From contig SBGZ01000054.1 in the NCBI GenBank assembly GCA_006226415.1, forward strand, positions 1,554 to 65,553: a stretch of DNA of 64,000 bases. The letters run 5' to 3'. How positions within the stretch are numbered: position 1 is the stretch's first letter; the number at the start of each line of letters is the position of its first letter. This DNA is from Alphaproteobacteria bacterium (GTDB lineage: Bacteria > Pseudomonadota > Alphaproteobacteria > M2410). Position numbers and translations under genes: made by a program. Shown here one piece after another: positions 27,748 through 49,920 of the stretch. The notes beneath the pieces are model-generated. The model made no database searches, was not told the origin of the DNA, and worked only from the letters and a program-made list of their open reading frames with translations.

Positions 27748-27752
27748 CTTTC

Positions 27753-28553: not shown

Positions 28554-28565
28554 GAGTTCGAGGTC

Positions 28566-29927
28566 ATGACCCTCAAAAATACTTTCCTCACTCTTGCCCT
28601 CCTCGGCGCGGTCTACAGCCCGGCCGCGCTGGCGGATGGTCCCTCCTTGCCGCCAGGCCTTGGTGGCCCCAGTCTCCCCTCAGGCCTTGGCGACAAGGAG
28701 GCAGAGGTGACTGAGAAGGAAGAGGCGCCGGAACCGGCTTTCAATGTGACCGGCTTCATTGAGGCGCGGGCGGGGACGCGGCTGCAGGATGCTCAAGGCT
28801 ATGACGATTGGACCCTGGGTGAACTGCGCGGCCAGCTTTCCCTCGACGGCATGACCGATACCTTGACCTGGCGCATCACCGCCGATGCGGTTCTCGACCC
28901 TGTACTCGAAGAATATGGGCCGGACCTTGGCCGCGGTGAGGGCGTGCTGGATCTGCGTGAGGCCTGGGCGCTGTTCCGCCCGTCAGGCAACATGGACCTG
29001 AAACTTGGTCGCCAGATCCTCACCTGGGGGACGGGAGACCTTCTCTTTATCAATGACCTCTTTCCCAAAGACTGGAATGCTTTCTTCATTGGCCGGGACG
29101 TGGAATACCTCAAAGCCCCGTCAGATGCCTTGAAGCTTTCCTGGTATGGCGCCAAGGCGAGTGTTGATCTTGTGGTCACACCGCAGTTTGATCCGGACCG
29201 CGCCATCGATGGCCGCATTCTAACCTACTACAATCCTATGACAGGCAGTGTGAACACGTCTCCCGCCGCGTTGCGGGTCCAATCTGAAAATGGTCCGGAA
29301 GTCGCTGCGCGGCTCTATGGCCAATCCGGGTCTACGGAATGGGCGCTTTATTATTACAACGGCTATTGGAAGAGCCCAGCCGGTTTTGACATTGTGGATC
29401 TGAAAGCGACCTATCCGGAACTTGCCGTTTATGGCGCCAGTGTCCGCGCGCCGATGCTAGGCGGCATCGGCAATGCGGAGGTGGGATATTACGACAGCCG
29501 TGATGAAAAGAGTGGCGCTGATCCTTTCACGCCCAACAGCCAGTGGCGTTTCCTTGTGGGCCTCGAACGTGAAATAGTGCCGGACCTGACAGGTGCGGTT
29601 CAGTATTACGTTGAAAAAACGGAGGACTATGACGCCTATCTGGGGGCGTTGTTACCAGGCATGCCAAAGGTCGATGAGTATCGCCAGGTCCTGACCTTGC
29701 GTTTGACCCAGCAACTCATGAACCAGAACCTGGTTTTGAGCGGCTTTAACTTCTATTCGCCGACCGATGAGGATGGCTACCTGCGCCTCAATGTGGCTTA
29801 CAAGGTCACCGATGCCTTGCGCGTCGAAGCCGGTAGTAATTTCTTCTACGGCGCGGCGAACACCAGCTTCTTCGGCCAGTTTGAAGATAACTCAAATATC
29901 TATGTGGCCCTTCGCCGGAGCTTTTAG
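28566..29927 (+). CDS. Outer-membrane beta-barrel protein (third member of the exporter trio)
   Basis: 453 aa with a signal peptide ending ALA. Tandem GPSLPPGLG/GPSLPSGLG motif, then beta-strand periodicity. C-terminal ...VALRRSF. Confidence 0.55.
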   Translation: MTLKNTFLTLALLGAVYSPAALADGPSLPPGLGGPSLPSGLGDKEAEVTEKEEAPEPAFNVTGFIEARAGTRLQDAQGYDDWTLGELRGQLSLDGMTDTLTWRITADAVLDPVLEEYGPDLGRGEGVLDLREAWALFRPSGNMDLKLGRQILTWGTGDLLFINDLFPKDWNAFFIGRDVEYLKAPSDALKLSWYGAKASVDLVVTPQFDPDRAIDGRILTYYNPMTGSVNTSPAALRVQSENGPEVAARLYGQSGSTEWALYYYNGYWKSPAGFDIVDLKATYPELAVYGASVRAPMLGGIGNAEVGYYDSRDEKSGADPFTPNSQWRFLVGLEREIVPDLTGAVQYYVEKTEDYDAYLGALLPGMPKVDEYRQVLTLRLTQQLMNQNLVLSGFNFYSPTDEDGYLRLNVAYKVTDALRVEAGSNFFYGAANTSFFGQFEDNSNIYVALRRSF

Positions 29928-34329: not shown

Positions 34330-35616
34330 ATGAACGTCGCACTTTCAGACGTCTCGACGATCGATGACAGCATCATAGATGCGGTATATGCGGAGCCGCT
34401 GGAAACTTTCAATCCGGCACAATCGGCAAATTTTCAGAACAATACCATGTGGCCCTATTTTGAGCGGCTGCGCAAAGAGGCACCAGTTCACTACACACCC
34501 GACAGCGACTTTGGCCCCTATTGGTCCATCACCAAGTTCAACGACATCGTTGCCATTGATACCAACCACAAGGACTTTTCATCCGAGCCAGGAATTGCCC
34601 TGGCGCTGAAAGATACGCCGACTTTTGATGAGGCAAATGCTTCCGGTCCGCCGCCCATGTTCATTGCCATGGACCCGCCCAAGCACGACGTTCAGCGCAA
34701 GACCGTGAGCCCTGTCGTGGCGCCTGCCCATTTGGCGGAACTCTCGCCGCTGATCCGGGAGCGGGCGGGCAAAATTCTTGACAATCTGCCGATCGGGGAG
34801 GAATTTGACTGGGTCGATCTGGTCTCCAAGGAACTCACCGGCATGACCCTGGCGACCCTCTTTGGCATTCCGCTCGAAGACCACCGCCGTCTGCTCCATT
34901 GGTCAGACGTGGTGACAGCGGTTCCAGGTCACGGCCTGATCGACAGCTTTGAGCAGAAGTTTGAAATCTTCCAGGAGTATCGCCAATACTTCCTGGATCA
35001 ATGGGCGACCCGCAAAGCACAAGAGCCCATGGGCAACCTGGTGTCCATGCTGGCCCATGGCGCTCACACCAAAGACATGGAGCCGCGCGAATATTTCGGC
35101 AATGTCATCCTGCTGACGGTTGGCGGCAATGATACAACGCGGAATTCCATTTCCGGTTCGGTCCTGGCGCTGAACCAGAACCCGGACCAATACAACAAGC
35201 TGCGCGCCGACCCGGGCCTCATTCCTTCCATGGTTTCTGAGACCATTCGCTGGCAAACACCGCTCGCGCATATGAAGCGCCGCGCGACCCGCGACATTGA
35301 CTTCCAGGGTCAGACCATCAAAAAGGATGACAATGTGGTCATGTGGTATGTCTCGGGCAACCGCGATGAGGAAGTTGTGGATCGCCCCAATGAGTACATC
35401 ATTGATCGCGAGCGTCCGCGCCACCACATTTCCTTCGGCTTTGGTATTCACCGCTGCGTCGGCAATCGTTTGGCGGAATTGCAGCTCACCATCATCTGGG
35501 AAGAAATCATGAAACGCTTCCCGGAGATCGTTGTGGTCTCCGAGCCGAAGCGGACCTTCTCATGTTTTGTGAAGGGTTATGAATCCATGAATGTGGTGAT
35601 CCCCAAGCGCAACTAG
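34330..35616 (+). CDS. Cytochrome P450, CYP153-like
   Basis: Heme loop FGFGIHRCVGNRLAE, EXXR motif (SETIRW), and MFIAMDPPKHDVQRKTVSPVVAP typical of CYP153 terminal hydroxylases. No ferredoxin or reductase is adjacent. Confidence 0.9.
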   Translation: MNVALSDVSTIDDSIIDAVYAEPLETFNPAQSANFQNNTMWPYFERLRKEAPVHYTPDSDFGPYWSITKFNDIVAIDTNHKDFSSEPGIALALKDTPTFDEANASGPPPMFIAMDPPKHDVQRKTVSPVVAPAHLAELSPLIRERAGKILDNLPIGEEFDWVDLVSKELTGMTLATLFGIPLEDHRRLLHWSDVVTAVPGHGLIDSFEQKFEIFQEYRQYFLDQWATRKAQEPMGNLVSMLAHGAHTKDMEPREYFGNVILLTVGGNDTTRNSISGSVLALNQNPDQYNKLRADPGLIPSMVSETIRWQTPLAHMKRRATRDIDFQGQTIKKDDNVVMWYVSGNRDEEVVDRPNEYIIDRERPRHHISFGFGIHRCVGNRLAELQLTIIWEEIMKRFPEIVVVSEPKRTFSCFVKGYESMNVVIPKRN

Positions 35617-35653: not shown

Positions 35654-35941
35654 CTATTTGTGGGCGATTTCTTTATCCGTAAAGAGGTAATCCCGCAGCT
35701 CTTTGTCGAAGGCAGGGTCTTTACGCCGGATCCATTCGAGCACCATGGCCGCATGTTCCTTTTCTTCATCGCGGTTATGAGCCAGGATGGCGGCCAGATC
35801 CTTATCCTTACAGGCATCAACCCGTTGTTGATACCAGTCGACGGCTTCCAGCTCCTCCATCAGCGAAACAATGGCGCGGTGCATATCCCGTGTTTCATCA
35901 GAGAGTTCTTCGATGGGTTCGTGATAACCTTCATTTGCCAT
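35654..35941 (-). CDS. EncFtn-like ferritin-like protein (no targeting peptide, no adjacent encapsulin)
   Basis: 95 aa. HRAIVSLMEELEAVDWYQQRVDA ... LAAILAHNRDEEKEHAAMVLEWIRR closely matches remembered Rhodospirillum rubrum EncFtn. The protein ends shortly after YLFTDKEIAHK. Confidence 0.75.
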   Translation of the reverse strand: MANEGYHEPIEELSDETRDMHRAIVSLMEELEAVDWYQQRVDACKDKDLAAILAHNRDEEKEHAAMVLEWIRRKDPAFDKELRDYLFTDKEIAHK

Positions 35942-36081
35942 GGGGGTAGGTGCTCCTTCGTTGATCTGGAAAGCCGGAGATTGCGTGCCGGCAAGTTGCT
36001 GCCAAGTCTAGTGAGAATAGGTAAAGTGTAAAGAGATTCGCGGGGCGGCAGGACCCCATGTAATACCCAGAGGAGCAAGAA

Positions 36082-37554
36082 GTGGCGGAGACTTCACCAG
36101 CATCAGATGAACGCGCACCCCATCAGAACATCGGGTTGGCGACGGGTCCGATCGCGGCAGGCCTCGCCTTGTTATTCTTCTGGCCGGCGGATTTGCCCGC
36201 CGTCGGAACTTATACTGCCGCGATCGCCCTTTGCATGGCGATCTGGTGGGCCACAGAGGCGGTGCCTGTGCCGGTAACCGGGTTCTTGCCCATTGTGCTC
36301 TATCCGCTCTTTGGCATTCAATCGATCAAGGAAACTTTGTCGACTTCCTATGCTCACCCCACGGTTTATCTCTTCCTCGGCGGATTTATCATGGCGCTCG
36401 CTATTGAGCGCTCCGGCCTCCATTTGCGTTTGGCGCTTAACATCTTTCGCCGGGTTGGCGTGCACGGAAGGTCCCTCATAGGGGGTTTCATGGTGGTCGC
36501 GGCGCTGCTCAGCATGTGGATCTCCAACACCTCCACCACCATGATGCTTCTGCCCATTACGGCTTCCATCATCTTTGTCATGCGCGAATCCATGAAGGAA
36601 TTGCCTGCCAATGACATGAAGAATTTTGAAATGGCGCTGCTCCTTGGGCTCGCCTATGGCGCCACGCTGGGCGGTATCGCCACGCTTGTTGGCACGCCGC
36701 CCAATGTTTTCATGGCAGGTTTTATGTCCGAGACCTATAGCGTGGACGTAAGTTTTGCAAAGTGGATGCTCATCGGCATTCCCATTACGGTGGTTATGTT
36801 GCCCATCACATGGGCGCTTTTGACCCATGTGCTCTTCCCGGTAAATTTTAAAGCCTCGACGGAACTAAAGGCGCATATCGAGGATCTGCGACTGGGGCTT
36901 GGGTCCATGCGGGCGGCGGAAAAACGGGTTGGCCTGCTCTTTGTTTTGCTCGTCGGTGGCTGGATCTTGCGCAAACCCTTGATCGCCTGGACCGGCCTGA
37001 CGGGTCTGACCGATGCCGGTATCGCCATGACAGCGGCCGTGGCCGCTTTTATCATCCCGTCAGGCAAAAAAGGGGAGGCGCTCTTGACCTGGGAGGATAC
37101 CGCGCGTTTGCCCTGGGGTGTGCTCATCCTGTTCGGCGGCGGGCTGGCGCTGGCTGGCGGCATGTCCACCTCCGGGCTTACCTTATTCCTGGGTCAGCAA
37201 TTGGCGCCGCTGGGGCAGATCCACATCGCGGTGCTGGTCCTTGCCTCCGTGGTGCTGGTGATATTTCTGACAGAGCTCACCTCCAATCTTGCCACCACCG
37301 CGACCATCCTGCCGGTTATGGGCGCCATTGCCGTGCAAACCGGTCAGGATCCGCTGCTTTTCACCATCCCGGTCACTTTGGCCGCCAGCTGCGCCTTCAT
37401 GTTACCGGTGGCGACCCCGCCCAACGCCATTGTCTTTTCCTCTGGCGGTTTAACGATCCCGCAAATGATGCGGGCAGGGGTCTGGCTCAATCTGATCGGC
37501 GTCTTGATCCTCTCTTTGGTGACCCTAAAACTTGTCCCGATGGTTTTCGGATAG
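36082..37554 (+). CDS. DASS/SLC13-family anion:sodium symporter
   Basis: 490-aa polytopic protein with a GTG start after AGAGGAG. SNTSTT and TSNLATT hairpin-tip motifs are characteristic of DASS transporters. Confidence 0.85.
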   Translation: MAETSPASDERAPHQNIGLATGPIAAGLALLFFWPADLPAVGTYTAAIALCMAIWWATEAVPVPVTGFLPIVLYPLFGIQSIKETLSTSYAHPTVYLFLGGFIMALAIERSGLHLRLALNIFRRVGVHGRSLIGGFMVVAALLSMWISNTSTTMMLLPITASIIFVMRESMKELPANDMKNFEMALLLGLAYGATLGGIATLVGTPPNVFMAGFMSETYSVDVSFAKWMLIGIPITVVMLPITWALLTHVLFPVNFKASTELKAHIEDLRLGLGSMRAAEKRVGLLFVLLVGGWILRKPLIAWTGLTGLTDAGIAMTAAVAAFIIPSGKKGEALLTWEDTARLPWGVLILFGGGLALAGGMSTSGLTLFLGQQLAPLGQIHIAVLVLASVVLVIFLTELTSNLATTATILPVMGAIAVQTGQDPLLFTIPVTLAASCAFMLPVATPPNAIVFSSGGLTIPQMMRAGVWLNLIGVLILSLVTLKLVPMVFG

Positions 37555-37627
37555 AAGAATGAGGCAAAGCACGCTTGCCAGACGCCTGGCTCCGAGGGAT
37601 GCTAGAAAAAATAAAACATCATGAAGG

Positions 37628-40600
37628 ATGAAAGCCTCAATGGCGCGCCATCAAAAGAATAGGATCTGGGCGCTTGTTCCGATTAAGCCGTTTGAAGCGG
37701 CCAAAGGACGTTTGCGCGAGGCTTTGCCTGTCACCGAGCGCAGAGCGCTTGCTGAGGCCATGGCCCGCGATGTTTTGGCGGCCTTGCGCGGTGCTTCGAG
37801 GGTCGAAGGCATATTGCTTGTCTCGCGCGGCATCGAAGCCAAGTCGCTCGCTGAGAAATTCGGCGCTGAGCTCTGGGAAGAGGTCGAAGGAGCGGACCTG
37901 AACGGGGCCTTGCGCGAAGGGCTTGAGGTTCTCAAAACCAAAGGGGTTGATCGCGCGCTCATTCTGCCTGGAGATCTGCCTTTCATCACCGCGCAAGCGG
38001 TTGACGCGCTGATCGACAAGGCACCCAAGGCCGCTCTGGTTGCTTCTCACGATGGCGACGGCACCAATGCCTTGCTGCTGGATTTGAATGCACCTTTTGT
38101 GCCTGAGTTTGGCCCCGGCAGCTTTTTTCGTCACCGGGCGGTGCTTGGCGAAGAGGCGGTGGCAGAAAGCAAAGCTCTGGCCTTCGATCTCGACACCGCC
38201 ACTGATCTTGAAGCCTCAATCGCCAGATTTTCTCGTCTGCCGGAGAAGGGGCGCACGCGCGCATTTATCGGCGATCATTTGCGCCTCAGTGAAGCGGCAG
38301 CTCATAAGCTGGCAGAGCGGGAAAGCCTGGACGCGCTCATGACCCGCGCGGCCGAGAAACGCGACCGCTCATTTGGGGATACGCTCACCTATTCGCGCAA
38401 GGTCTTCATTCCGCTCACCCAGCTCTGCCGGGATGTTTGCCACTATTGTACTTTCGCAAAAACCCCTCGATCTCTCGCCAACCCGTTTCTGACGGTAGAT
38501 GAGTGCATTGCAATTGCAAAAGAAGGCGCGGCCCTTGGCTGCGAAGAGGCGCTCTTCACCCTCGGAGAAAAACCGGAGCTACGATATCAGGCCGCCCGTG
38601 AGGCTCTGCAGGCCATGGGCTTTGCCTCTACAACGGATTATCTCGCCCATGTGGCCCGCCGTGTCTTCGAGGAGACCGGACTCTTGCCTCACGTTAATCC
38701 CGGCTGCATGGATGAAAGTGAAATTGAAAAGCTGCGTCAGGTCGCCCCTTCCATGGGGTTGATGCTCGAAAGTGCTTCGGACCGTTTGTGCGAAAAAGGC
38801 ATGCCGCACTATGGATCGCCCGACAAGGTGCCGGCCTTGCGCCTTGCCACCCTCGAAAGGGCGGGGGCGGCAAAGGTCCCCTTCACCAGCGGCATCCTGA
38901 TTGGCATTGGCGAGACAAGGGCTGAGCGCGTCGACGCCCTCTTGAAGCTGCGCGATCTTCATGAGGCCCATGGGCATCTGCAGGAAGTGATCGTGCAGAA
39001 CTTCAAACCCAAGCCCGACACGAAAATGGCAGGCGTGCCCGAGCCTGATCTGAAGGAGCTGCTCTGGTCCATCGCCATGGCGCGGCTCATATTGCCCGGG
39101 GATGTGTCTGTTCAGGCGCCGCCCAACCTGTCTCCCGGGGATCTCAAGCAGCTCGTTGCCGCCGGTATCAACGATTGGGGCGGCGTTTCACCGCTCACTC
39201 CCGATCACGTCAACCCGGAAGCCCCTTGGCCGCATCTGGACGATCTGGCGCGCCTCAGCGCCGAGGCGGGCAAAGCCCTTGCCGGACGCCTGACGGTCTA
39301 TCCGAAATATGTAAAGTCGAGCGTGGTTTGGACGGACCCGAACTTTCACAAAGCGCTTCTGCAAAAAAGCGATGGCGAGGGCCTGGCGCGCCATGAGGGG
39401 TGGACGCCGGGCGGAGAGGCGTTGCCCAGTCTCGAGCTGCCTGCGATCTCCACCACCCACCGACTGACAAGGAGTTTGGAGCGCCTGAGCTCAGGTGACG
39501 AGTTGAGTGAAGGTGAGGTGGCCGAGCTCTTTACGGCCAGAGGCAGCGCGCTCGCCGATGTCGTGAGCGCCGCTGACGCGCTCCGGCAGGCGCAGGTGGG
39601 CGACACTGTCACCTATGTGGTCAACCGCAATATCAATTACACCAACATCTGCAGCTTCGGCTGCACCTTCTGTGCCTTCTCCAAAGGCAAAACCAACGAG
39701 ACACTGCGCGGCACGCCTTATGATATTGGCCTGGCGGAAACCACCCGCCGCGCCGAGGAAGCCTGGGCGCGCGGGGCAACGGAGGTTTGTCTGCAGGGCG
39801 GCATCCATCCGGCCTATACCGGCACGACCTATCTGGAGATCTGCCGGGCGATCAAGTCGGCACTGCCGCAGATGCACATTCATGCTTTTTCGGCGCTTGA
39901 GGTTTCTCAAGGCGCTGAGACGTTAGGCCTTTCGGTCCCGGCCTTTTTGGAGCAGCTCAAGGATGCCGGGCTCGACACCATGCCCGGCACAGCAGCGGAA
40001 GTATTGGACGACCGGGTTCGCACACGCATCTGCCCTGACAAGCTCACCAGCGACAATTGGATGAGCGTGATTGGTGCCGCTCACGCCGCGGGCATCAACA
40101 CCACCGCGACCATCATGTTTGGCCACATCGATTCCTATGCCCATTGGGCGCGGCATCTCGTGCTTCTGAGAAATCTTCAGGAAGACAGTCTCGCTGAGGG
40201 AAGGGGGTGCTTCACCGAATTTGTGCCGCTGCCCTTTGTTCATATGGAAGCCCCCATGTATCTAAAGTCCGGCGCGCGCAAAGGCCCGACCTTCCGTGAG
40301 ACGGTGCTTATGCATGGCATCGCAAGGCTGGTACTTGGCAAGACCTTCACCAACATTCAGGCAAGCTGGACCAAACTGGGCCGCGGCGGCGTGGCGCAAG
40401 TCCTTCGCGCCGGCGTCAATGATCTGGGGGGCACCTTGATGAATGAATCCATTTCCCGCGCCGCCGGGTCCACCCACGGCCAGGAGATGCCGCCGGAGGC
40501 CATGGAGGAACTCATCCGCGCCTGTGATCGCAGCCCGCGCCAACGCACAACCCTTTATGGCCCCGTGTCTGACACGCGCAAAAAGGCAGGCCGAAATGCC

Positions 40601-40672
40601 CCGCCGCTGCAGGAGGTCCAGCTGGAGCGGGTGGACCGTAAACCCCTGGCGGGTATCGCCGCCGCCGAATAA
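37628..40672 (+). CDS. fbiC: CofC(FbiD)-CofG-CofH triple fusion: phospho-lactate/PEP guanylyltransferase domain + FO synthase (FbiC)
   Basis: 1014-aa uninterrupted ORF. N-terminal roughly 215 aa: IWALVPIKPFEAAKGRLREALPVTERRALAEAMARDVLAAL (CofC pattern). Two radical-SAM sites follow: CRDVCHYCTF (CofG half) and CSFGCTFCAF (CofH half). Confidence 0.85.
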   Translation: MKASMARHQKNRIWALVPIKPFEAAKGRLREALPVTERRALAEAMARDVLAALRGASRVEGILLVSRGIEAKSLAEKFGAELWEEVEGADLNGALREGLEVLKTKGVDRALILPGDLPFITAQAVDALIDKAPKAALVASHDGDGTNALLLDLNAPFVPEFGPGSFFRHRAVLGEEAVAESKALAFDLDTATDLEASIARFSRLPEKGRTRAFIGDHLRLSEAAAHKLAERESLDALMTRAAEKRDRSFGDTLTYSRKVFIPLTQLCRDVCHYCTFAKTPRSLANPFLTVDECIAIAKEGAALGCEEALFTLGEKPELRYQAAREALQAMGFASTTDYLAHVARRVFEETGLLPHVNPGCMDESEIEKLRQVAPSMGLMLESASDRLCEKGMPHYGSPDKVPALRLATLERAGAAKVPFTSGILIGIGETRAERVDALLKLRDLHEAHGHLQEVIVQNFKPKPDTKMAGVPEPDLKELLWSIAMARLILPGDVSVQAPPNLSPGDLKQLVAAGINDWGGVSPLTPDHVNPEAPWPHLDDLARLSAEAGKALAGRLTVYPKYVKSSVVWTDPNFHKALLQKSDGEGLARHEGWTPGGEALPSLELPAISTTHRLTRSLERLSSGDELSEGEVAELFTARGSALADVVSAADALRQAQVGDTVTYVVNRNINYTNICSFGCTFCAFSKGKTNETLRGTPYDIGLAETTRRAEEAWARGATEVCLQGGIHPAYTGTTYLEICRAIKSALPQMHIHAFSALEVSQGAETLGLSVPAFLEQLKDAGLDTMPGTAAEVLDDRVRTRICPDKLTSDNWMSVIGAAHAAGINTTATIMFGHIDSYAHWARHLVLLRNLQEDSLAEGRGCFTEFVPLPFVHMEAPMYLKSGARKGPTFRETVLMHGIARLVLGKTFTNIQASWTKLGRGGVAQVLRAGVNDLGGTLMNESISRAAGSTHGQEMPPEAMEELIRACDRSPRQRTTLYGPVSDTRKKAGRNAPPLQEVQLERVDRKPLAGIAAAE

Positions 40673-41606: not shown

Positions 41607-41640
41607 ACAGCCTGCGGTCCCAGAAGAGACCACAGGCTGT
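41607..41640. other. Hairpin between convergent genes
   Basis: acagcctgcggtc pairs with gaccacaggctgt: 13 bp with one mismatch and an 8-nt loop. No U-tract. Confidence 0.4.
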
Positions 41641-42987: not shown

Positions 42988-43658
42988 GAGGAAACAGCAC
43001 CTTCCAGTGACGGCGGGCGGCAATTGCTGCAGATGAGCTCAATCGGTGTGCCGCGCTTGTCCAAAAAGGCCAGCTTGAGCCAGCGACCTTGCTGGTCATA
43101 CCACGACGTAAACTGAAGTTCTCCGGAGACATCAAAGCGTTGCGCGGGCACATGATCGCCGATCTGGTCAAACCAGAGCTGATCTTGTGAGGTCGCGATC
43201 TCAATTCGGTTATGCCGTCCGGTAAGCGTGTTAAACAGCTGGTTTTTATCGAGCGCGGCAATGTTCCAGTGATTGGTCGCATAGCCGGGCCGCTCGGCAT
43301 GGGTTTCGCCTTTTTGGCCATTCTCGTTGACCGTTGAACGGATCGACATCAATTGATCCGCGCACCAGACCTCGCGGGACTGATAGTCATAAGAATATAC
43401 CGGGACAAAAAGGATCGAGACGTCGATCTGGGTGCGAACGTCAACGGCGAGCGTGGAGCCTTGGGTGTCGAAGCGCACCTCATGGGCGCCAATAGATTGA
43501 CCCTTCCGGACGATGTCAAATTTCAGATGAGGCGTCCCGTAAAGATCGATGGGGTCAAGGGCGCGCGCGCCATTGCAAGCGGCAGGCTCTGCCCGGGCCA
43601 GGCCCGGCGACAAGGCAAGCACGACAAAAAGGGACAGGAGGCGTTTCATGACGATCAA
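42984..43658 (-). CDS. Periplasmic hypothetical protein
   Basis: 224 aa with signal peptide LSLFVVLALSPGLARA. 4-nt overlap with chrR. Beta-rich. Confidence 0.5.
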   Translation of the reverse strand: MIVMKRLLSLFVVLALSPGLARAEPAACNGARALDPIDLYGTPHLKFDIVRKGQSIGAHEVRFDTQGSTLAVDVRTQIDVSILFVPVYSYDYQSREVWCADQLMSIRSTVNENGQKGETHAERPGYATNHWNIAALDKNQLFNTLTGRHNRIEIATSQDQLWFDQIGDHVPAQRFDVSGELQFTSWYDQQGRWLKLAFLDKRGTPIELICSNCRPPSLEGAVSS

Positions 43659-44311
43659 AGCTTGATGAAGGGGTTGAGAAAGCGGCTAAACGGCCCGGCG
43701 AGAACGACAGGCGCGTCCATTACCACCAGCGCATAACAGTCTTCGCCGTCATCGACGACCGGCTGATGCTTGTGGCGGGTGTCTTTCAGGTCAAAGTCAC
43801 CGACTCCAAAGTGTTGACCTTGATCGGTATATCCGCCGGTGAGAACCAGGGTCGCCTCATGGCCCTTATGAGTATGGATGGGCTGCGATTGACCAGCCTT
43901 AAAGCGCATCAGCGAAACTTTGAAAGAGCCGATGTGAAGGTCGAGATTAAACTGGGAAACCTTGCTCCCGATGTGTCGCCATTTGAGGTCCCCCAAAGAG
44001 GCGGGCAGATAATCGCGCAGCGGCGCCGGCAAGATCTTCAAACTCTTGTCGTCAAAATGAGGAACCGTGGGCGGCGTGACGGTTTCAGGTTCGTCCAGAC
44101 GGCTCAGAACCGCGTTCAGAGAAGTCGCATCCACCTGAGCGCGCCCGCTCGCCTCCAGAAGAGAGCCGCCTAGTGCCTCCAGGCGCTGGATCTCCTCGGC
44201 GCAGGTTTGACAGAGGCTGGCGTGGCAGGCAACGGAGAGCGCCATAGGTTCGGCCAAGGCACCGGTCGCATAGTCAAGAAGGAGGCCGGAATCGGGATGG
44301 TGCGTAATCAT
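43655..44311 (-). CDS. chrR: Anti-sigma-E factor ChrR (ZAS + cupin)
   Basis: The N-terminus MITHHPDSGLLLDYATGALAEPMALSVACHASLCQTCAEE carries the H-x3-C-x2-C zinc motif. C-terminal cupin domain. Overlaps the sigma-factor stop. Confidence 0.85.
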   Translation of the reverse strand: MITHHPDSGLLLDYATGALAEPMALSVACHASLCQTCAEEIQRLEALGGSLLEASGRAQVDATSLNAVLSRLDEPETVTPPTVPHFDDKSLKILPAPLRDYLPASLGDLKWRHIGSKVSQFNLDLHIGSFKVSLMRFKAGQSQPIHTHKGHEATLVLTGGYTDQGQHFGVGDFDLKDTRHKHQPVVDDGEDCYALVVMDAPVVLAGPFSRFLNPFIKL

Positions 44312-44955
44312 GAGCTGTACCCAACAGATTGTCTCAGGCGCGCAACGCCAAGGCGAATGCGCGACTTAACGGTGCCAAGCGGCAATTGCAGGTCTTCGGC
44401 GATCTCGCCGTGGGATTTGTCTTCATAAAAGGCTTTGAAAATAATGTCCCGTTGAGTGTCCGGGAGGTCGTCAATCGCCGCCTTGAGAATATCGGCCTGT
44501 TGACTTTCATCCACCCGGTCGTCGGCGCCGGGGGCTGTATCGGCAACCTCAAGTCCTTCTTCAAGCGTATATTCCGGGTGCCGCTCTTTCCGGAACATAT
44601 CAATCCGCTTGTTCCGCAGGATGGTAAAAACCCAGTTGGAAGGGGATCCTTTGCGCGCGTCAAATGAAGAGGCCTTGCGCCAGACCATGAGCATGGTTTC
44701 CTGAACCAGTTCTTCGGCCCGCGAGGGATTGGTGCCTTGTTTGAGGGTGAAGGCCTTGAGCCGAGGCGCGTAATGTTCAAAGAGCCGGGAAAAGGCCTCG
44801 CGGCTTCGATTAAGGGCAATGTCTTCGATCAGTGCAGACAGCTGGTCATTTGTCAGATCTGGCAAATTCAGACTCACCACGTTGGAGGCGGCTTTTTGGT
44901 TTCCAAGAAAACCTTGCCTCATCGCGGGAGAATTTTCCAGACGCATTCTGTTCAT
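44308..44955 (-). CDS. rpoE: ECF sigma factor (RpoE, ChrR-partnered)
   Basis: Sigma-70 region 2 (FSRLFEHYAPRLKAF...ELVQETMLMVWRKA) and region 4 (DLPDTQRDIIFKAFYEDKSHGEIAEDLQLPLGTVKSRIRLG). The start is ambiguous (ATG at 44955, 44946 or 44922). The ORF-track extension to 45132 is rejected. Confidence 0.85.
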   Translation of the reverse strand: MNRMRLENSPAMRQGFLGNQKAASNVVSLNLPDLTNDQLSALIEDIALNRSREAFSRLFEHYAPRLKAFTLKQGTNPSRAEELVQETMLMVWRKASSFDARKGSPSNWVFTILRNKRIDMFRKERHPEYTLEEGLEVADTAPGADDRVDESQQADILKAAIDDLPDTQRDIIFKAFYEDKSHGEIAEDLQLPLGTVKSRIRLGVARLRQSVGYSS

Positions 44956-45005
44956 GACAATCAAAGGGCTCCTGATAGCCGTTCTGTTTTTGGACTTGTG
45001 GTGCT

Positions 45006-45034
45006 TGATACGCCGCTTTTTGAGATTTAGATCA
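45006..45034 (-). promoter_or_regulatory. Candidate sigma-E promoter TGATCT-N18-TATCA upstream of rpoE
   Basis: On the minus strand, TGATCT occupies 45034..45029 and TATCA occupies 45010..45006. The spacing matches the three other sites in this cluster. Confidence 0.5.
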
Positions 45035-45826
45035 CTCTGCGGCAATGGTGGGCCGGGTCTCGGCGGTTGGGGTGCTATGTTTGGGGTGCCCGTATACCTT
45101 AGCCCCTTTGCGCCAAAGCCGGAAGGCCTCAAAATGGATGGCGCCGATCACTTTGAGCGTCATAAGCGGATATTTGAAAAAGCCATTAAAGAGCGTTCGG
45201 GTGGTGAGGGGCTCAGCCGTGCCGGTGACGCCGGTAAGAAGAAGGGTTCCCGGCCCTTCATGGCAAATCTCAAGGCGAAGCTTTGGCCCGGGCGCTTGAA
45301 AGCGAAAAGTGTACTGGCCGTCTAAATCGATAAAGGGAGAGACATGAAAGTCCTTGGCCGCCTTTTGTTCGGCGAGTTGACCTCTCTCATTCCTCTCTGC
45401 GCGGCAGACATAGACATGCTGCTCGCCAAAAGTATTCTTCACCTCGCAGACCACGGCAAAGAGGTTGTCCGCCTCATCATAGCAATAGTAAGCCGAAAGC
45501 GGATTAAACACATATCCCAAGATGCGTGGGTAGCATAAGAGTGCGATCCGTCCGCAAGGCGTGTTGAGCCCCTGATCCGCCAGCTGCGCCTCTACCCAGG
45601 GCCGCAAAGGGCTGCCATCGCGGGCCCCGTGATCCCTGTCGTGAAGTGAAAAGAGCCCAAAACGATTGTAGGCAAAGCCATGCGTCTCTTGCGGCAAGGT
45701 TTCAAGCTCATCCAGATCCAGAAGGCAGGTAAACACCCGGTAGCGAAAACTGTGGGTAAGCGGTTGCTTGCGCTGGTGGAAGACGCTTCCGAAGTAAATT
45801 TGGTGTGCGGCCTGGGTCATCTTCAC
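45032..45826 (-). CDS. DUF1365-family protein
   Basis: 264 aa. IYFGSVFHQRKQPLTHSFRYRVFTCLLDLDELE is the family signature. 4-nt overlap with the upstream FAD enzyme gene. Confidence 0.75.
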   Translation of the reverse strand: MKMTQAAHQIYFGSVFHQRKQPLTHSFRYRVFTCLLDLDELETLPQETHGFAYNRFGLFSLHDRDHGARDGSPLRPWVEAQLADQGLNTPCGRIALLCYPRILGYVFNPLSAYYCYDEADNLFAVVCEVKNTFGEQHVYVCRAERNERGQLAEQKAAKDFHVSPFIDLDGQYTFRFQAPGPKLRLEICHEGPGTLLLTGVTGTAEPLTTRTLFNGFFKYPLMTLKVIGAIHFEAFRLWRKGAKVYGHPKHSTPTAETRPTIAAE

Positions 45827-47136
45827 TCTGCCGCCACAAGCCGGGCCGGCGAGGCATATCCGCTCCCCGTTTCCGCCCAGGGGCGCTGGCCGCCTAAGCG
45901 CTCGCCCACTTCCAGCCCGGAGCGAAGGCCGTCTTCATGAAAACCATAGCCAAAATAGGCACCGCAAAACCAACTGCGGTTTTGCCCCTGCAGGTCCTGG
46001 AGGTTTTGTTGGGCACTCAGAGCAGCGCCATCGAAAAGTGGATGCATATAGACAAAGCGCTGGAAGGTCAGATCGGGGTCCGGGTCCACATGGGGGTTCA
46101 GGCTAACAAACAGGGGGTATTGAGGATCAATCCCTTGAAGCCGGTTCATCCAATAGGTGATGGAGGCCGCGCGGTCGTTGCCCGCGGTGGGGGCGCTCAT
46201 ATAGTTCCAGCTTGCCCAGGCTTTGCGCCGCTGCGGCATGAACTGCGGGTCCGCATGGAGGATTGCTGTATTGGGCGTGTAGCGAATGGCGCCGAGGAGG
46301 GCCTGCTCTGCGGCGCTGGGTTTGTCGATCAGCGCCAGCGCCTCGTCGCTATGGCAGGCGAAAATAACTTCATCAAAGTCCTCACGGGCGCCATCTTCAT
46401 GCACCAGCGTAACCTTATCTTCCGAGCGTAAAACCTTTTGAGGTTTTGTGCCCAAACGAAACTTGTCCTGAAATCCGGCGGTCATGCGCTGCACATATTC
46501 ACGCGAACCTCCTGAGACCGTGCGCCATTCCGGACGCTCGATCTTGCGGTTGATGAGTTTGTGATTGGCAAAAAACCGAACAAAAGAGGCGGCGGGAAAA
46601 GCGAGCATTTCAGAAGGAGAGGTCGACCAGATCGCGGCGCCCATGGGAACAAGATAGCGGTCGCGGAAGTCGTCGCCAAATCCCCGCCAGGAAAGATAGT
46701 CGCCAAGCGTGCGGTTCTCCAGATATCCGGCCTGAAGATCAGGAATAGCAACCCGGTTGAACTTCAAAATATTGCTCAGCATCAGGATAAATGAGGGGCT
46801 TAAAACATTGCGGCGGAAGGCAAAGATTGTATCCAGATTGTCGCCACACCACTCCACATGAGTTTCGCTTTGACTGAAGGCGAAGCTCATATTGCTGGCT
46901 TGAGTAGGGACATTGAGGTACTCAAATAACGCGGTGAGGTTCGGATAATTGAGCTCGTTGTAAACGATAAACCCGGTGTCGACCGGGATCGTGCGATCAC
47001 CGTAATCCACCTCCACGGTATTAGAATGCCCCCCTATGCGCTTTTCCTTTTCAAAAATGGTAATGTCATGCCGTTCATTAAGGAGGTAAGCGGCGCCGAG
47101 ACCGGAGATGCCGGAACCGATAATGGCGATTTTCAT
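45823..47136 (-). CDS. FAD-dependent oxidoreductase (amine-oxidase-like; UfaD-like candidate)
   Basis: 437 aa. MKIAIIGSGISGLGAAYLL dinucleotide-binding motif with amine oxidase-like architecture. Sits in the sigma-E cluster. Confidence 0.85.
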   Translation of the reverse strand: MKIAIIGSGISGLGAAYLLNERHDITIFEKEKRIGGHSNTVEVDYGDRTIPVDTGFIVYNELNYPNLTALFEYLNVPTQASNMSFAFSQSETHVEWCGDNLDTIFAFRRNVLSPSFILMLSNILKFNRVAIPDLQAGYLENRTLGDYLSWRGFGDDFRDRYLVPMGAAIWSTSPSEMLAFPAASFVRFFANHKLINRKIERPEWRTVSGGSREYVQRMTAGFQDKFRLGTKPQKVLRSEDKVTLVHEDGAREDFDEVIFACHSDEALALIDKPSAAEQALLGAIRYTPNTAILHADPQFMPQRRKAWASWNYMSAPTAGNDRAASITYWMNRLQGIDPQYPLFVSLNPHVDPDPDLTFQRFVYMHPLFDGAALSAQQNLQDLQGQNRSWFCGAYFGYGFHEDGLRSGLEVGERLGGQRPWAETGSGYASPARLVAAE

Positions 47137-47246
47137 AGTCTTCTCTATTCCCTTCTGTGTTCAGGCTGACAAACACAGCCTCCATGCCTCCTCAAGAAAA
47201 GTCATTTGTGTTAGACTTCTTTTGTCCTCGTTGGAGATTTGTGAGT

Positions 47247-47275
47247 TTGTACGGGGGAAAAGCGCCGCCGGATCA
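47247..47275 (-). promoter_or_regulatory. Candidate sigma-E promoter TGATCC-N18-TACAA upstream of the FAD oxidoreductase/DUF1365 operon
   Basis: On the minus strand, TGATCC occupies 47275..47270 and TACAA occupies 47251..47247. Confidence 0.5.
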
Positions 47276-47305
47276 ACGGCAGAGCCTTTTTATTTTCCCT
47301 CGCCA

Positions 47306-47334
47306 TCATCCAACTTGCCGTGAACTGCGTAAGA
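47306..47334 (+). promoter_or_regulatory. Candidate sigma-E promoter TCATCC-N18-TAAGA upstream of the CFA-synthase-like gene
   Basis: TCATCC at 47306-47311 and TAAGA at 47330-47334. The ATG at 47391 follows. Confidence 0.5.
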
Positions 47335-47390
47335 GACCTTGCATACTCGATATGCAGTCAATACCGATCAGAAAGGGGACTTGGATCATT

Positions 47391-48638
47391 ATGGAGGAAA
47401 AAACCTTATCGCCATTGCGCGCGCCTTCGGGCGAAGTAGAAAGTGAGCTTAATAGGGTGCCGCGGGTTTTGCGCCGCGTCTTTCGCGAAATCTCACGCAT
47501 TGAGTTTGGTCAGTTGCATATAGAGCTGCCAGACGGGCGGCGCCTTTCCTTTGTGGGTGAAAATCAGGGTCCGCAAGGAACCCTAAAGCTCAATAGCTAC
47601 CGCGCCATATGGGCTTTTGTTGTTGGCGGCGCCCTTGGATTTAGTGAAGCCTATGTCGCAGGTCACTGGGAAAGTCCCAATTTGACAGCGCTCTTGGAGG
47701 TTTTCGTCGCCAATCGCCGGATGCTGGAGCGCATGCGCCACACAGGTAAAATCGTAAAACCCTTCCACAAGGCCATGCACGCCTTGCACCGAAATACCCG
47801 CCGCGGGGCTCGCAAAAACATAACGGCGCACTACGACCTTGGCAACAAGTTCTATGGAGAGTGGCTCGACGAGACCATGACCTATTCGTCCGCCCGCTTT
47901 GCCCGCGAGGATATGACCCTAAGTGAGGCACAAAAGCAGAAGTATCGCGAATTGGCGGCGCGGCTTGATATTCAGCCGGGGCACCGGGTTCTGGAGATCG
48001 GTTGCGGCTGGGGCGGCTTTGCCGAATTTGCTGCTCGCGAAATCGGTTGCCCCGTCACCGCGATTACGATCAGTCGGCAGCAATATGACTTTGCCAAGAA
48101 GCGGATTTCTGACGCGGGTCTAGGCCATCTGGTCGAAGTGCGGTTTTGTGATTATCGCGACACCCAGGATCAATTTGACCGAATTGTCTCCATTGAAATG
48201 ATTGAAGCCGTGGGGGAAGCCTTTTGGCCTGCCTATTTCGGGACGCTTCGCGACCGGCTTGTGCCGGGCGGTCAGGCCGGTTTGCAGGTCATCACTATTG
48301 AAGATGGGGCCTTTGACGGATACCGCAAGTCGCCGGATTTTATTCAGCGTCATATTTTCCCAGGCGGCATGCTCCTGTCACGCACTGTGCTGATTGAGCA
48401 AATCAAGAAGGCCGGGCTGCTTCCGGGCGAGCTTTTCCCCTTCGGCCTGGACTATGGTCGTACCTTGCATCTTTGGTCTGAGCGCTTCAATGCGGCATGG
48501 AAGAAGATCACGAAGCAAGGGTTTGATGAGCGGTTCAAACGTCTGTGGGACTATTACCTGAGCTACTGCGAAGCAGGCTTCAAAGGCGGCAGTCTGGACG
48601 TTTTGCAAGTTACCATGCAAAAGCCCGCAAATTCTTGA
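47391..48638 (+). CDS. Cyclopropane-fatty-acyl-phospholipid synthase-family SAM enzyme
   Basis: 415 aa from the ATG at 47391 (SD GAAAGGGGA). SAM motif VLEIGCGWGG, plus the HYDLGNKFY and YSSARF blocks of the CFA synthase family. Confidence 0.85.
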   Translation: MEEKTLSPLRAPSGEVESELNRVPRVLRRVFREISRIEFGQLHIELPDGRRLSFVGENQGPQGTLKLNSYRAIWAFVVGGALGFSEAYVAGHWESPNLTALLEVFVANRRMLERMRHTGKIVKPFHKAMHALHRNTRRGARKNITAHYDLGNKFYGEWLDETMTYSSARFAREDMTLSEAQKQKYRELAARLDIQPGHRVLEIGCGWGGFAEFAAREIGCPVTAITISRQQYDFAKKRISDAGLGHLVEVRFCDYRDTQDQFDRIVSIEMIEAVGEAFWPAYFGTLRDRLVPGGQAGLQVITIEDGAFDGYRKSPDFIQRHIFPGGMLLSRTVLIEQIKKAGLLPGELFPFGLDYGRTLHLWSERFNAAWKKITKQGFDERFKRLWDYYLSYCEAGFKGGSLDVLQVTMQKPANS

Positions 48639-48646
48639 TCATGCGA

Positions 48647-48675
48647 TGATCCATTCGAGCTTCCAGTACGTAGTC
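48647..48675 (+). promoter_or_regulatory. Candidate sigma-E promoter TGATCC-N18-TAGTC upstream of the lipocalin gene
   Basis: TGATCC at 48647-48652 and TAGTC at 48671-48675. Confidence 0.45.
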
Positions 48676-48799
48676 AGATAGGCGCGGGCCGACATTTGCC
48701 CCTTCGACCGGCGCATTTGGGACAATTGTCCAATCCCAATAGCCGCGCTGTCGCTCTACTTGAGTGGCAGCGTGGCCCTTAAAGGAATTTTGATACAAC

Positions 48800-49336
48800 A
48801 TGAAACCACTTGTGATCGCTTTTTCATCATTTCTGGTCGGATGCACAGGTGTGCCTGAGGGAGTCACGCCGGTGACAGGCTTTCAGGTCGATCGCTATCT
48901 GGGCACTTGGTATGAAGTTGCCAGGCTGGACCACTCCTTCGAGCGCGGCATGACCAATGTGACCGCCTCCTATAGGCAGCAAGAGGATGGCACCCTCAAG
49001 GTTCTTAATCGCGGTTATAAGACAAGCGCCTGCGAGTTTGAGGAAGCCGAAGGAACCGCGCGCTTTCAAGGAGATCCTTCGGTTGCCAGTCTTTCGGTAA
49101 CATTCTTCTGGCCTTTTGCCGGGGGATACCATGTCATCGACCTGGATCAGGAAGACTATCAACATGCTCTGGTGGTAGGTCCGTCGCGAAAATATCTGTG
49201 GATCCTGAGCCGCACGCCTGATCTTGATCCCGTTACAGCAGGGTCTTTGACGGCCAAAGCAGCCCTGCTCGAGTTCCCGGTCGAAGAGCTCATCTGGGTG
49301 TCACACGACACCCCGCAATGTGATGATGAAGGCTAG
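48800..49336 (+). CDS. blc: Bacterial lipocalin (Blc-like)
   Basis: 178 aa. Lipobox-like FLVGC, then YLGTWYEVARLDHSFERG and the ALVVGPSRKYLWILSR lipocalin signatures. Confidence 0.8.
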   Translation: MKPLVIAFSSFLVGCTGVPEGVTPVTGFQVDRYLGTWYEVARLDHSFERGMTNVTASYRQQEDGTLKVLNRGYKTSACEFEEAEGTARFQGDPSVASLSVTFFWPFAGGYHVIDLDQEDYQHALVVGPSRKYLWILSRTPDLDPVTAGSLTAKAALLEFPVEELIWVSHDTPQCDDEG

Positions 49337-49844
49337 AGCGGCGCCCGTGAAAAAGGTCTCGGTCAACGACAAGATGCAGAAGGGTTACACCTATGAGAGG
49401 GTGGCGCCTATGGGCGAGAATTTCGATCCGGATTTTGCCCCGCACCTGACCCCGAAGGAGATGCTCGAACTCGGGATCTTTGAGGGCAAATATATGAACG
49501 ATTGTCAGGACGAGTTTCCCAAAGACTGGTTCATCAAGGCAAAGCTTTCTGAAGAGCCTGATGCCTCACTAAATTTTTTTGGTGTCAAAAGCAGGCAGCC
49601 CTTAAGCCACTGGCGCGAAAAGGGGTGGATCATCGGTCCGGACCCGCGCGGCTGGTTTCAATGGTATTGCCGCTATTATATGGGGCGCCGCTTGCCAGAA
49701 GTCGATCAGCGTCAAATCAAGCGGTGGCGCGCCTTTTCGCGTCATGCGGCTCAAGTCAAAAAAAACTGCGAGCCCGGCGACCTCTACTGCCGTCCTCGCC
49801 AACGTCAGGCCCTTCTGCAATGGGCTTGGGACCCGTTTATTTGA
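49320..49844 (+). CDS. Conserved hypothetical protein
   Basis: 174-aa ORF overlapping the lipocalin stop; possible starts at 49323 or 49374. The Trp-rich block GWFQWYCRYYMGRR is distinctive. I cannot name the family. Confidence 0.5.
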   Translation: MMMKARAAPVKKVSVNDKMQKGYTYERVAPMGENFDPDFAPHLTPKEMLELGIFEGKYMNDCQDEFPKDWFIKAKLSEEPDASLNFFGVKSRQPLSHWREKGWIIGPDPRGWFQWYCRYYMGRRLPEVDQRQIKRWRAFSRHAAQVKKNCEPGDLYCRPRQRQALLQWAWDPFI

Positions 49845-49862
49845 GCGCCAAGAAGTCGCAAT

Positions 49863-49898
49863 AAAAACGCCGACCCGGGTTGCCCGCGGATCGGCGTT
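49863..49898 (-). terminator. Terminator hairpin between convergent genes
   Basis: aacgccga (49866-49873) pairs with tcggcgtt (49891-49898), with a GC-rich interior. The A-run at 49863-49867 supplies a U-tract on the minus strand, downstream of the SDR gene. Confidence 0.55.
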
Positions 49899-49920
49899 CC
49901 TAAAAACCTAATACAGCTGG

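What the first reader, a model, noticed from the sequence alone, without database searches (positions are those of the whole stretch)
37628..40672. Single ORF fusing CofC/FbiD to both halves of FO synthase (CofG+CofH)
Seen in the sequence: a 1014-aa ORF without stops. The N-terminal roughly 215 aa has the CofC-type nucleotidyltransferase pattern (ALVPIKPFEAAKGRL...). It is followed by two radical-SAM domains with CRDVCHYCTF and CSFGCTFCAF.

Established knowledge: FbiC is the CofG-CofH fusion that makes the deazaflavin FO. CofC/FbiD activates the 2-phospholactate, PEP or 3-phosphoglycerate-derived moiety for F420 side-chain assembly, and it is normally a separate gene or linked to cofD and cofE. 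F420 production in Proteobacteria is documented but patchy.

Inference: the fusion joins the first and a later step of F420 synthesis in one polypeptide. No cofD/fbiA or cofE/fbiB is in this window, so the organism may make F420 using genes elsewhere, or the CofC-like domain has a new role. A DASS anion transporter immediately upstream could supply an organic-acid precursor; that idea is speculative.
Basis: partly seen in the sequence, partly recalled or inferred. Interest (0 to 1): 0.6.

Follow-up and report, generated by a model that had tools for sequence, protein, structure and literature searches.

The report
CofC fused to FO synthase FbiC
This is a real single gene joining three enzyme domains for making the redox cofactor F420, but it is a common and easily formed merger of two neighbouring genes in an otherwise ordinary pathway.

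Summary
The 1014-aa ORF at 37628-40672 (+) is real. It holds an N-terminal CofC/FbiD guanylyltransferase domain, then CofG and CofH radical-SAM domains, and each scores above its curated cut-off.

All eight ligand-binding residues known from M. tuberculosis FbiD are kept. The diagnostic position is Gly, which marks the 2-phospholactate/PEP type rather than the 3-phosphoglycerate type.

The same MAG has fno-cofE-cofD on another contig and an F420-dependent luciferase-like oxidoreductase. The fused CofC is its only CofC.

The fusion is not rare. At least 120 protein clusters from Alpha-, Beta- and Gammaproteobacteria-labelled MAGs share the architecture, named only "CofH" or "FO synthase". About 4 of 58 sampled CofC-bearing genomes of the same class carry it.

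In unfused relatives cofC lies directly upstream of fbiC, with a 4-nt NTGA overlap in 10 of 17 loci, so a small frame change fuses them. The FbiC tree needs at least 4 to 7 fusion or fission events.

CofC and FbiC make the two co-substrates of CofD, so the fusion couples two converging branches. The DASS transporter link holds only within the genus.

I found no paper that describes the fusion. It is a modest variant of a known system.

The parts
37628..40672 (+). Whole cofC-fbiC fusion ORF. It is 1014 aa from the first ATG, and 1010 aa from the probable start at ATG 37640.
37664..38215 (+). CofC/FbiD guanylyltransferase domain (residues 13-196). Ligand residues are K20, L91, D116, T146, G162, S165, D187 and D189.
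   Evidence: TIGR03552 scores 124.7 against a cut-off of 105. It aligns to PDB 7p97, 6bwg and 2i5e. The residues are conserved across fused and separate homologues. The fold matches 7p97 with a TM-score of 0.85-0.88.
38216..38386 (+). Junction and linker (residues 197-253). It is made of a shortened CofC C-terminal tail joined to the N-terminal helices of FbiC, and residues 196-220 are modelled with low confidence.
   Evidence: Junction comparison with unfused relatives. AF2 pLDDT is about 58 over residues 200-220. dN/dS is 0.32 against G006.
38387..39352 (+). CofG radical-SAM domain (residues 254-575). The CxxxCxxC cluster motif C267/C271/C274 lies at 38426-38449.
   Evidence: TIGR03550 scores 477 against a cut-off of 213. 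The cysteines are invariant in 20 fused homologues.
39506..40567 (+). CofH radical-SAM domain with the CofH_C region (residues 627-980). The motif C675/C679/C682 lies at 39650-39673.
   Evidence: TIGR03551 scores 535 against a cut-off of 374. PF19288 matches. The fold matches MqnE 6xig with a TM-score of 0.84.
36082..37554 (+). Upstream neighbour: a DASS family anion symporter. It is context only, and the synteny holds only within the genus.
   Evidence: L019, 89% identity
40731..41594 (+). Downstream neighbour: a TauD-like Fe(II)/2-oxoglutarate dioxygenase. It is context only and is followed by a strong hairpin at 41607-41640.

Best explanation
The gene encodes one polypeptide with three working catalytic domains of the canonical F420 pathway.

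- The CofH and CofG radical-SAM domains build the deazaflavin FO from tyrosine and 5-amino-6-ribitylamino-uracil.
- The N-terminal CofC domain uses GTP to activate a C3 phospho-acid to its guanylyl diphosphate (LPPG or EPPG). The G162 residue points to the 2-phospholactate/PEP type rather than 3-phosphoglycerate.
- Both products are the two co-substrates of CofD. CofD is encoded on another contig together with cofE (tail ligase) and fno (NADPH:F420 oxidoreductase).

The fusion arose in place. In proteobacterial F420 operons cofC ends directly before fbiC, or 4 nt into it. A one-base frame change, or loss of a stop codon, therefore merges the two genes. This has happened or been reversed several times.

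The likely benefit is inferred, not shown. The fusion gives fixed 1:1 co-expression and co-location of the two branches that converge on CofD. That may matter because the CofC product is unstable.
For: Shown here:
- Domain identities are above curated cut-offs.
- All eight FbiD ligand residues are present in the window protein, and in 26 to 28 of 28 fused homologues at each position.
- The predicted CofC fold superposes on 7p97 and 6bwg with TM-scores of 0.85-0.88. The model has mean pLDDT 83.
- The CofC domain is under purifying selection against the same-genus copy, with dN/dS about 0.19.
- It is the only CofC in the genome.
- The pathway partners are all above cut-off: cofE at C1:19091-19840, cofD at C1:19837-20793, fno at C1:18335-19072, and a TIGR03559 F420-dependent LLM oxidoreductase at C86:68365-69402.
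- The operon order fno-cofE-cofD-cofC-fbiC, or cofD-cofC-fbiC, is seen in relatives, with cofC directly before fbiC.
- 10 of 17 unfused loci have an NTGA overlap. In L031 the two genes are in the same frame, separated by a single stop.
- The FbiC tree needs 7 changes of the fused state, at least 4 of them forced by strongly supported branches. An AU test rejects a single fused clade with p = 1.5e-109.
- Linker lengths differ from 0 to 89 aa between lineages.
- All of the top 120 protein clusters share the architecture.

From the literature:
- The FO and LPPG/EPPG branches merge at FbiA/CofD, and FbiD was active only when FbiA was present (PMC6450877).
- Gly versus Ser/Thr at the position of Mrhiz-CofC S162 is diagnostic for 3-PG use (PMC8764529).
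Against: - There is no biochemical evidence for any fused protein. Nobody has shown that the full-length polypeptide accumulates rather than being cleaved, or that FbiC is not also made from an internal start.
- The CofC domain evolves faster than the rest: 61% identity against about 81% between the two species of the genus. This is also true of stand-alone CofC, at 32-42% against about 60%.
- No dehydro-F420-0 reductase (FbiB C-terminal domain or FbiE) was found. No 2-phospholactate source is known. The actual C3 substrate is therefore unresolved, as for other Proteobacteria.
- The MAG is 83.7% complete, so absences are soft.
- Philmus et al., as quoted in PMC8498797, found that the CofG and CofH halves of FbiC work independently by diffusion. 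That argues against assuming channelling.
Confidence: 0.85

Rival explanations
1. The CofC-like domain has been recruited to a new role, such as activating another substrate or regulating FO synthase. It would no longer serve F420 side-chain assembly.
For: The domain is separated from cofD and cofE in this genus. It diverges faster than CofG and CofH. New neighbours (DASS, TauD-like, P450) flank it.
Against: It scores above the equivalog cut-off for CofC. All ligand residues are conserved. dN/dS is about 0.19. It is the only CofC in a genome that keeps cofD, cofE, fno and an F420-dependent enzyme. In other lineages the same fusion sits directly after cofD.
Confidence: 0.05
2. The fusion is a sequencing or assembly artefact: a lost stop or a frameshift in a MAG. 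The organism would really have separate cofC and fbiC genes.
For: The genome is a fragmented MAG of 96 contigs. Unfused relatives differ by only one frame step. Raw reads could not be checked.
Against: The same-genus genome G006 has the same continuous frame with a diverged linker. More than 120 independent clusters from several sources share the architecture, some on contigs longer than 1 Mb. The linker region is under purifying selection rather than looking like out-of-frame sequence.
Confidence: 0.02
3. The DASS transporter and the fused enzyme form a functional unit. The imported organic anion would be the precursor of the F420 linker.
For: The two genes are adjacent on the same strand with a gap of 73 to 85 nt. 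DASS, the fusion and the TauD-like gene are conserved in the same order in G006 at 89-90% identity.
Against: The synteny holds only within one genus. None of the other eight fused loci, nor any of the unfused loci with usable tblastn hits, has a DASS or TauD hit nearby. PEP, 2-PL and 3-PG are intracellular phosphorylated metabolites. G162 predicts the ordinary 2-PL/PEP type.
Confidence: 0.05
4. The organism mainly needs FO, for example as a photolyase antenna. The F420 branch would be vestigial.
For: A ChrR/ECF-sigma photo-oxidative stress cluster lies 3 kb downstream.
Against: No photolyase domain (PF00875) was found in the genome, although the control genomes gave matches. cofD, cofE, fno and an F420-dependent LLM enzyme are intact. 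A search for an RpoE-type promoter pattern found nothing near the gene.
Confidence: 0.03

Closest known systems
FbiC (bifunctional FO synthase, CofG-CofH fusion) of Actinobacteria and Proteobacteria
   Same: Residues 210-1014 match the full-length CofGH equivalog (1098 bits). The domains are in the same CofG-then-CofH order. Both CxxxCxxC motifs and the CofH_C region are present.
   Different: It carries an extra N-terminal CofC domain of about 200 aa in the same polypeptide. The reviews I could read list only the CofG+CofH and CofE+FbiE fusions (PMC8498797).
CofC/FbiD: M. tuberculosis FbiD (PDB 6BWG/6BWH), Mycetohabitans CofC (7P97), M. mazei CofC (2I5E)
   Same: The fold matches, with TM-scores of 0.82-0.88. 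The three Mg-binding aspartates and the K, L, T, G and S ligand residues are all present.
   Different: It is not a stand-alone protein. It has Gly and Leu where the 3-PG-using Mycetohabitans enzyme has Ser162 and Met91, so it is predicted to be of the 2-PL/PEP type.
Proteobacterial F420 operon fno-cofE-cofD-cofC-fbiC (Oligotropha, Paracoccus and similar)
   Same: The gene set is the same. CofE is single-domain and has no FbiB reductase domain. Fno is the F420 reductase.
   Different: In this genus the operon is split into fno-cofE-cofD on contig C1 and the cofC-fbiC fusion on C92. The last two genes are merged into one.
FbiB (CofE fused to the FbiE nitroreductase domain) of mycobacteria
   Same: It is another case in the same pathway where adjacent steps have merged into one polypeptide (PMC8498797).
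   Different: The domains and steps are different. FbiB joins consecutive steps, whereas this fusion joins two parallel branches that feed one enzyme.

Membership tests
CofC/FbiD (TIGR03552, PF01983) | Profile score above the curated cut-off | tested here: met
   TIGR03552 scores 124.7 bits against 105. PF01983 scores 66.6 against 22.
CofC/FbiD (TIGR03552, PF01983) | Mg2+-binding aspartates and substrate-contact residues (Mtb FbiD K17, L92, D116, T148, G163, S166, D188, D190) | tested here: met
   The window protein has K20, L91, D116, T146, G162, S165, D187 and D189. Each is kept in 26-28 of 28 fused homologues.
CofC/FbiD (TIGR03552, PF01983) | MobA-like nucleotidyltransferase fold as in the solved CofC structures | tested here: met
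   In the AF2 model the domain has pLDDT about 80-93. Foldseek gives 7p97 TMt 0.85-0.88 with rmsd 2.3-2.5 A, 6bwg 0.85 and 2i5e 0.82.
CofC/FbiD (TIGR03552, PF01983) | GTP-dependent guanylylation of 2-PL, PEP or 3-PG in a coupled assay with CofD | not testable with these tools
   This needs an enzyme assay. The sequence predicts the 2-PL/PEP type (Gly at the S162 position).
FbiC / CofG+CofH FO synthase (NF006687) | Full-length equivalog score above the cut-off, with the CofG and CofH halves in order | tested here: met
   NF006687 scores 1098 against 1018. TIGR03550 scores 477 against 213. TIGR03551 scores 535 against 374.
FbiC / CofG+CofH FO synthase (NF006687) | Two radical-SAM CxxxCxxC [4Fe-4S] motifs | tested here: met
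   The motifs are C267/C271/C274 and C675/C679/C682. They are invariant in 20 homologues.
Complete F420 biosynthesis and use in the host genome | cofD, cofE, an F420 reductase and at least one F420-dependent enzyme are present | tested here: met
   CofD scores 286 against 257. CofE scores 281 against 181. Fno (TIGR01915) scores 194 against 150. The LLM enzyme (TIGR03559) scores 383 against 335.
Mycobacterial-type PEP route | Dehydro-F420-0 reductase (FbiB C-terminal domain or FbiE) | tested here: not met
   TIGR03553 gives only 24 and 17 bits against a cut-off of 250. CofE is 249 aa and single-domain. The MAG is 84% complete.
3PG-F420 route (Mycetohabitans type) | Ser or Thr at the Mrhiz-CofC S162 position | tested here: not met
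   The position is Gly162 in the window protein and Gly in 28 of 28 fused homologues.

The most novel reading that the evidence does not exclude
The recurrent CofC-FbiC fusion may be a Rosetta-stone sign of a physical assembly. In Proteobacteria, FO synthase, CofC and CofD would work together, so that FO and the labile LPPG/EPPG are handed to CofD on one scaffold. If so, the fused protein would be a natural, stable form of CofC. It could finally be assayed or crystallised with a formed GTP site, and used to identify the still unknown C3 donor of the proteobacterial pathway, which has no FbiE and no known 2-PL source.
Probability: 0.2. Interest if true: 0.5.

Novelty: new variant of a known kind. 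Interest (0 to 1): 0.3.

Why it matters
The fusion matters modestly, in three ways.

1. Annotation. More than a hundred public proteins of this architecture are labelled only "CofH" or "FO synthase". Genome surveys that look for a separate cofC gene will wrongly score these organisms as lacking CofC, and so as unable to make F420.

2. Pathway logic. The fusion links the two branches that converge on CofD. This gives independent genomic support for the idea that CofC acts in close association with its partners.

3. Practical use. A single gene that supplies both FO and the activated linker could simplify heterologous F420 production.

It does not reveal a new pathway or new chemistry.

Tried and rejected
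- **CofD-CofC fusions.** Class-level matches with open frames of 430-620 aa looked like possible fusions. tblastn shows cofD and cofC in different frames, or no cofD upstream. These are just long stop-free stretches in GC-rich DNA. The 1429-aa frame of G403 is an ordinary cofC-fbiC fusion whose frame happens to stay open upstream.
- **Representative-library search with the CofC domain alone.** It gave 2916 homologues at E <= 1e-10, but the top 150 are all 185-498 aa. Fused proteins are presumably filed under FbiC-type cluster representatives. The search could not measure how common the fusion is.
- **Phylum-level sample.** Only 7 of 401 genomes had CofC, and none besides the window genome carried the fusion. 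It was uninformative.
- **RpoE/ChrR-type promoter pattern.** The pattern was recalled from memory. It gave one match far away at 4246 and none near the gene, which is no more than chance.
- **Generic promoter and terminator scan.** Nothing exceeded the shuffled controls, apart from the hairpin after the TauD-like gene.
- **Ddn/FDOR family PF04075.** There was no match, but the control genomes were silent too, so absence is not shown.
- **Ney et al. 2017 (ISME J).** The paper could not be read. Whether it mentions the fusion is unchecked.
- **Earlier scan notes.** They describe ordinary proteobacterial F420 operons. None describes this fusion.
Full report
**1. Observation**

The window holds one uninterrupted frame at 37628-40672 (+), 1014 aa.

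Profile searches confirm three domains:
- Pfam CofC (PF01983), residues 15-194, plus two Radical_SAM stretches and CofH_C.
- NCBIfam TIGR03552 (CofC), 124.7 bits against a cut-off of 105.
- TIGR03550 (CofG), residues 254-575.
- TIGR03551 (CofH), residues 627-980.
- The full-length CofGH equivalog NF006687, 1098 bits against 1018.

An AAGGA motif at 37624-37628 favours the second ATG at 37640 as the start. The public gene call of 1010 aa agrees (P0002).

**2. Is the CofC domain intact?**

The best solved relatives are Mycetohabitans CofC (7P97), M. tuberculosis FbiD (6BWG/6BWH) and M. mazei CofC (2I5E).

I mapped the eight PEP/Mg-contact residues of Mtb FbiD (K17, L92, D116, T148, G163, S166, D188, D190; listed in PMC8764529) through the HMMER alignment. 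They correspond to K20, L91, D116, T146, G162, S165, D187 and D189, and all are identical. Across 28 fused and 16 separate homologues these positions are almost invariant.

Position 162 is Gly. Ser or Thr at this position is the diagnostic for 3-phosphoglycerate use (PMC8764529). The domain is therefore predicted to be of the ordinary 2-phospholactate/PEP type.

An AlphaFold2 model built on 20 fused homologues has mean pLDDT 83.3 and pTM 0.74. It shows three well-folded domains and a low-confidence stretch at about 196-220. Foldseek matches the N-terminal domain to 7p97, 6bwg and 2i5e with TM-scores of 0.82-0.88. It matches the radical-SAM halves to MqnE with 0.84.

Against the same-genus copy, dN/dS is about 0.19 for CofC, 0.06 for CofG and 0.08 for CofH. 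dS is saturated, so these values are rough. All three domains are under purifying selection.

**3. The rest of the pathway**

The host genome is a MAG of 2.45 Mb in 96 contigs, 83.7% complete.
- cofE (249 aa, single domain) and cofD lie side by side on contig C1, preceded by fno (TIGR01915, 194 bits against 150).
- One luciferase-like F420-dependent oxidoreductase (TIGR03559, 383 bits against 335) is on contig C86.
- The fused CofC is the only CofC above noise in the genome.
- No photolyase domain was found.
- No FbiB C-terminal or FbiE reductase was found.

The organism therefore looks like a normal proteobacterial F420 producer. As in other Proteobacteria, the source and reduction state of its linker remain unknown. 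Earlier scan notes on other genomes raised the same open point.

**4. How common is the fusion, and how did it arise?**

A word-index search with the N-terminal 260 residues found 20 clusters with the same architecture. A profile of these returned a list cut off at 120 clusters. All are 948-1066 aa and all have an N-terminal nucleotidyltransferase domain: 119 carry PF01983 and one carries PF12804 only. They come from MAGs labelled Steroidobac..., Hyphomicrob..., Burkholderi... and Proteobacte.... They are named only "CofH" or "FO synthase".

Counts from the genome samples:
- In the window's small order, 3 of 6 CofC-bearing genomes are fused.
- In an even sample of 401 genomes of the class, 58 have CofC and 4 of those are fused.

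In all but two of the related loci with both genes, cofC lies directly upstream of fbiC. The usual order is fno-cofE-cofD-cofC-fbiC or cofD-cofC-fbiC. In 10 of 17 unfused loci the cofC stop and the fbiC start overlap as NTGA. In the rest the gap is at most 34 nt. In L031 the two genes are already in the same frame, separated by one stop codon. A single-base frame change or the loss of a stop is therefore enough to fuse them.

Evidence for repeated events:
- A maximum-likelihood tree of the FbiC part (44 rows) needs 7 changes of the fused or separate state, at least 4 of them forced by strongly supported branches.
- An AU test rejects a single fused clade with p = 1.5e-109.
- The CofC tree is less resolved but also needs 7 changes.
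- Linker lengths vary from 0 to 89 aa between fused lineages.

The window's copy groups with its same-genus relative. Their sister group is the unfused genes of the same family.

**5. Neighbourhood**

Upstream are a P450 gene and a DASS symporter. Downstream is a TauD-like dioxygenase. DASS and the TauD-like gene flank the fusion in the same-genus genome at 89-90% identity. They flank it in no other fused or unfused locus. The transporter idea is therefore at best specific to this genus.

In this genus the ancestral operon has been split. fno-cofE-cofD stayed together on C1, and the fused gene moved elsewhere as a unit.

**6. Mechanism**

The domain identities, the intact catalytic residues and the complete pathway are shown here. 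The roles come from the literature. FO made by FbiC and LPPG/EPPG made by CofC/FbiD are the two substrates that FbiA/CofD joins. The CofC product is unstable, and FbiD was active only when FbiA was present (PMC6450877).

From this I infer that the fusion gives stoichiometric, co-located production of both CofD substrates. Whether there is real channelling or a complex with CofD is unknown. The CofG and CofH halves of FbiC are reported to work by free diffusion (PMC8498797), which counsels caution. The fusion may equally be a nearly neutral result of translational coupling.

**7. Novelty**

Four full-text searches and the 2021 F420 review turned up no description of a CofC-FbiC fusion. The review names only the CofG+CofH and CofE+FbiE fusions. 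Ney et al. 2017 could not be read.

The architecture is plainly present in public databases and is widespread. It is therefore an undescribed variant of a known system, not a new kind of system.

**8. Verdict**

Interest is low to moderate.

Noticed in passing
window 43655-50715: A cluster resembling the ChrR/ECF-sigma photo-oxidative stress type. It holds a ChrR anti-sigma factor (TIGR02451, 189 bits), an ECF sigma factor, DUF1365, a flavin amine oxidase, a cyclopropane-fatty-acid-synthase-like methyltransferase, a lipocalin and an SDR. The resemblance to the Rhodobacter singlet-oxygen regulon is from memory. No photolyase was found in the genome.
   Followed up: partly
genome contig C1:12531-20793: fno-cofE-cofD is divergently adjacent to an fdhD gene and a formate-dehydrogenase-like operon. 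That operon holds a 945-aa molybdopterin subunit with an N-terminal 2Fe-2S region and a 679-aa NuoE/NuoF-like fusion. A functional link between formate oxidation and F420 was not examined.
   Followed up: partly
window 34330-35616: A cytochrome P450 whose best match is the solanimycin SolI model (507 bits, below the 850 cut-off). It lies two genes upstream of the fusion. An unassigned 123-aa ORF with no Pfam match lies between it and the DASS gene, at 35660-36031.
   Followed up: no
window 37664-38215 compared with L019: Within one genus the CofC domain is only about 61% identical. CofG and CofH are about 81-83% identical, and the flanking DASS and TauD-like genes are 89-90% identical. CofC is a fast-evolving part of the pathway in both fused and separate forms.
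   Followed up: partly
L014:8678-9996: In this alphaproteobacterial MAG the fbiC homology starts 614 nt after cofC and is split into two pieces. This may be a disrupted or frameshifted fbiC.
   Followed up: no
window 25108-29927: A run of an MMPL/RND-like transporter (879 aa), a LolA-like protein and a weak DUF1302-like outer-membrane protein. It looks like a lipid or hydrophobe export module.
   Followed up: no
L022 and L024 (G166, G371): Here the gene order is fbiC-fno-cofE-cofD-cofC, so cofC follows cofD but is not next to fbiC. The operon has been rearranged more than once in the class.
   Followed up: no
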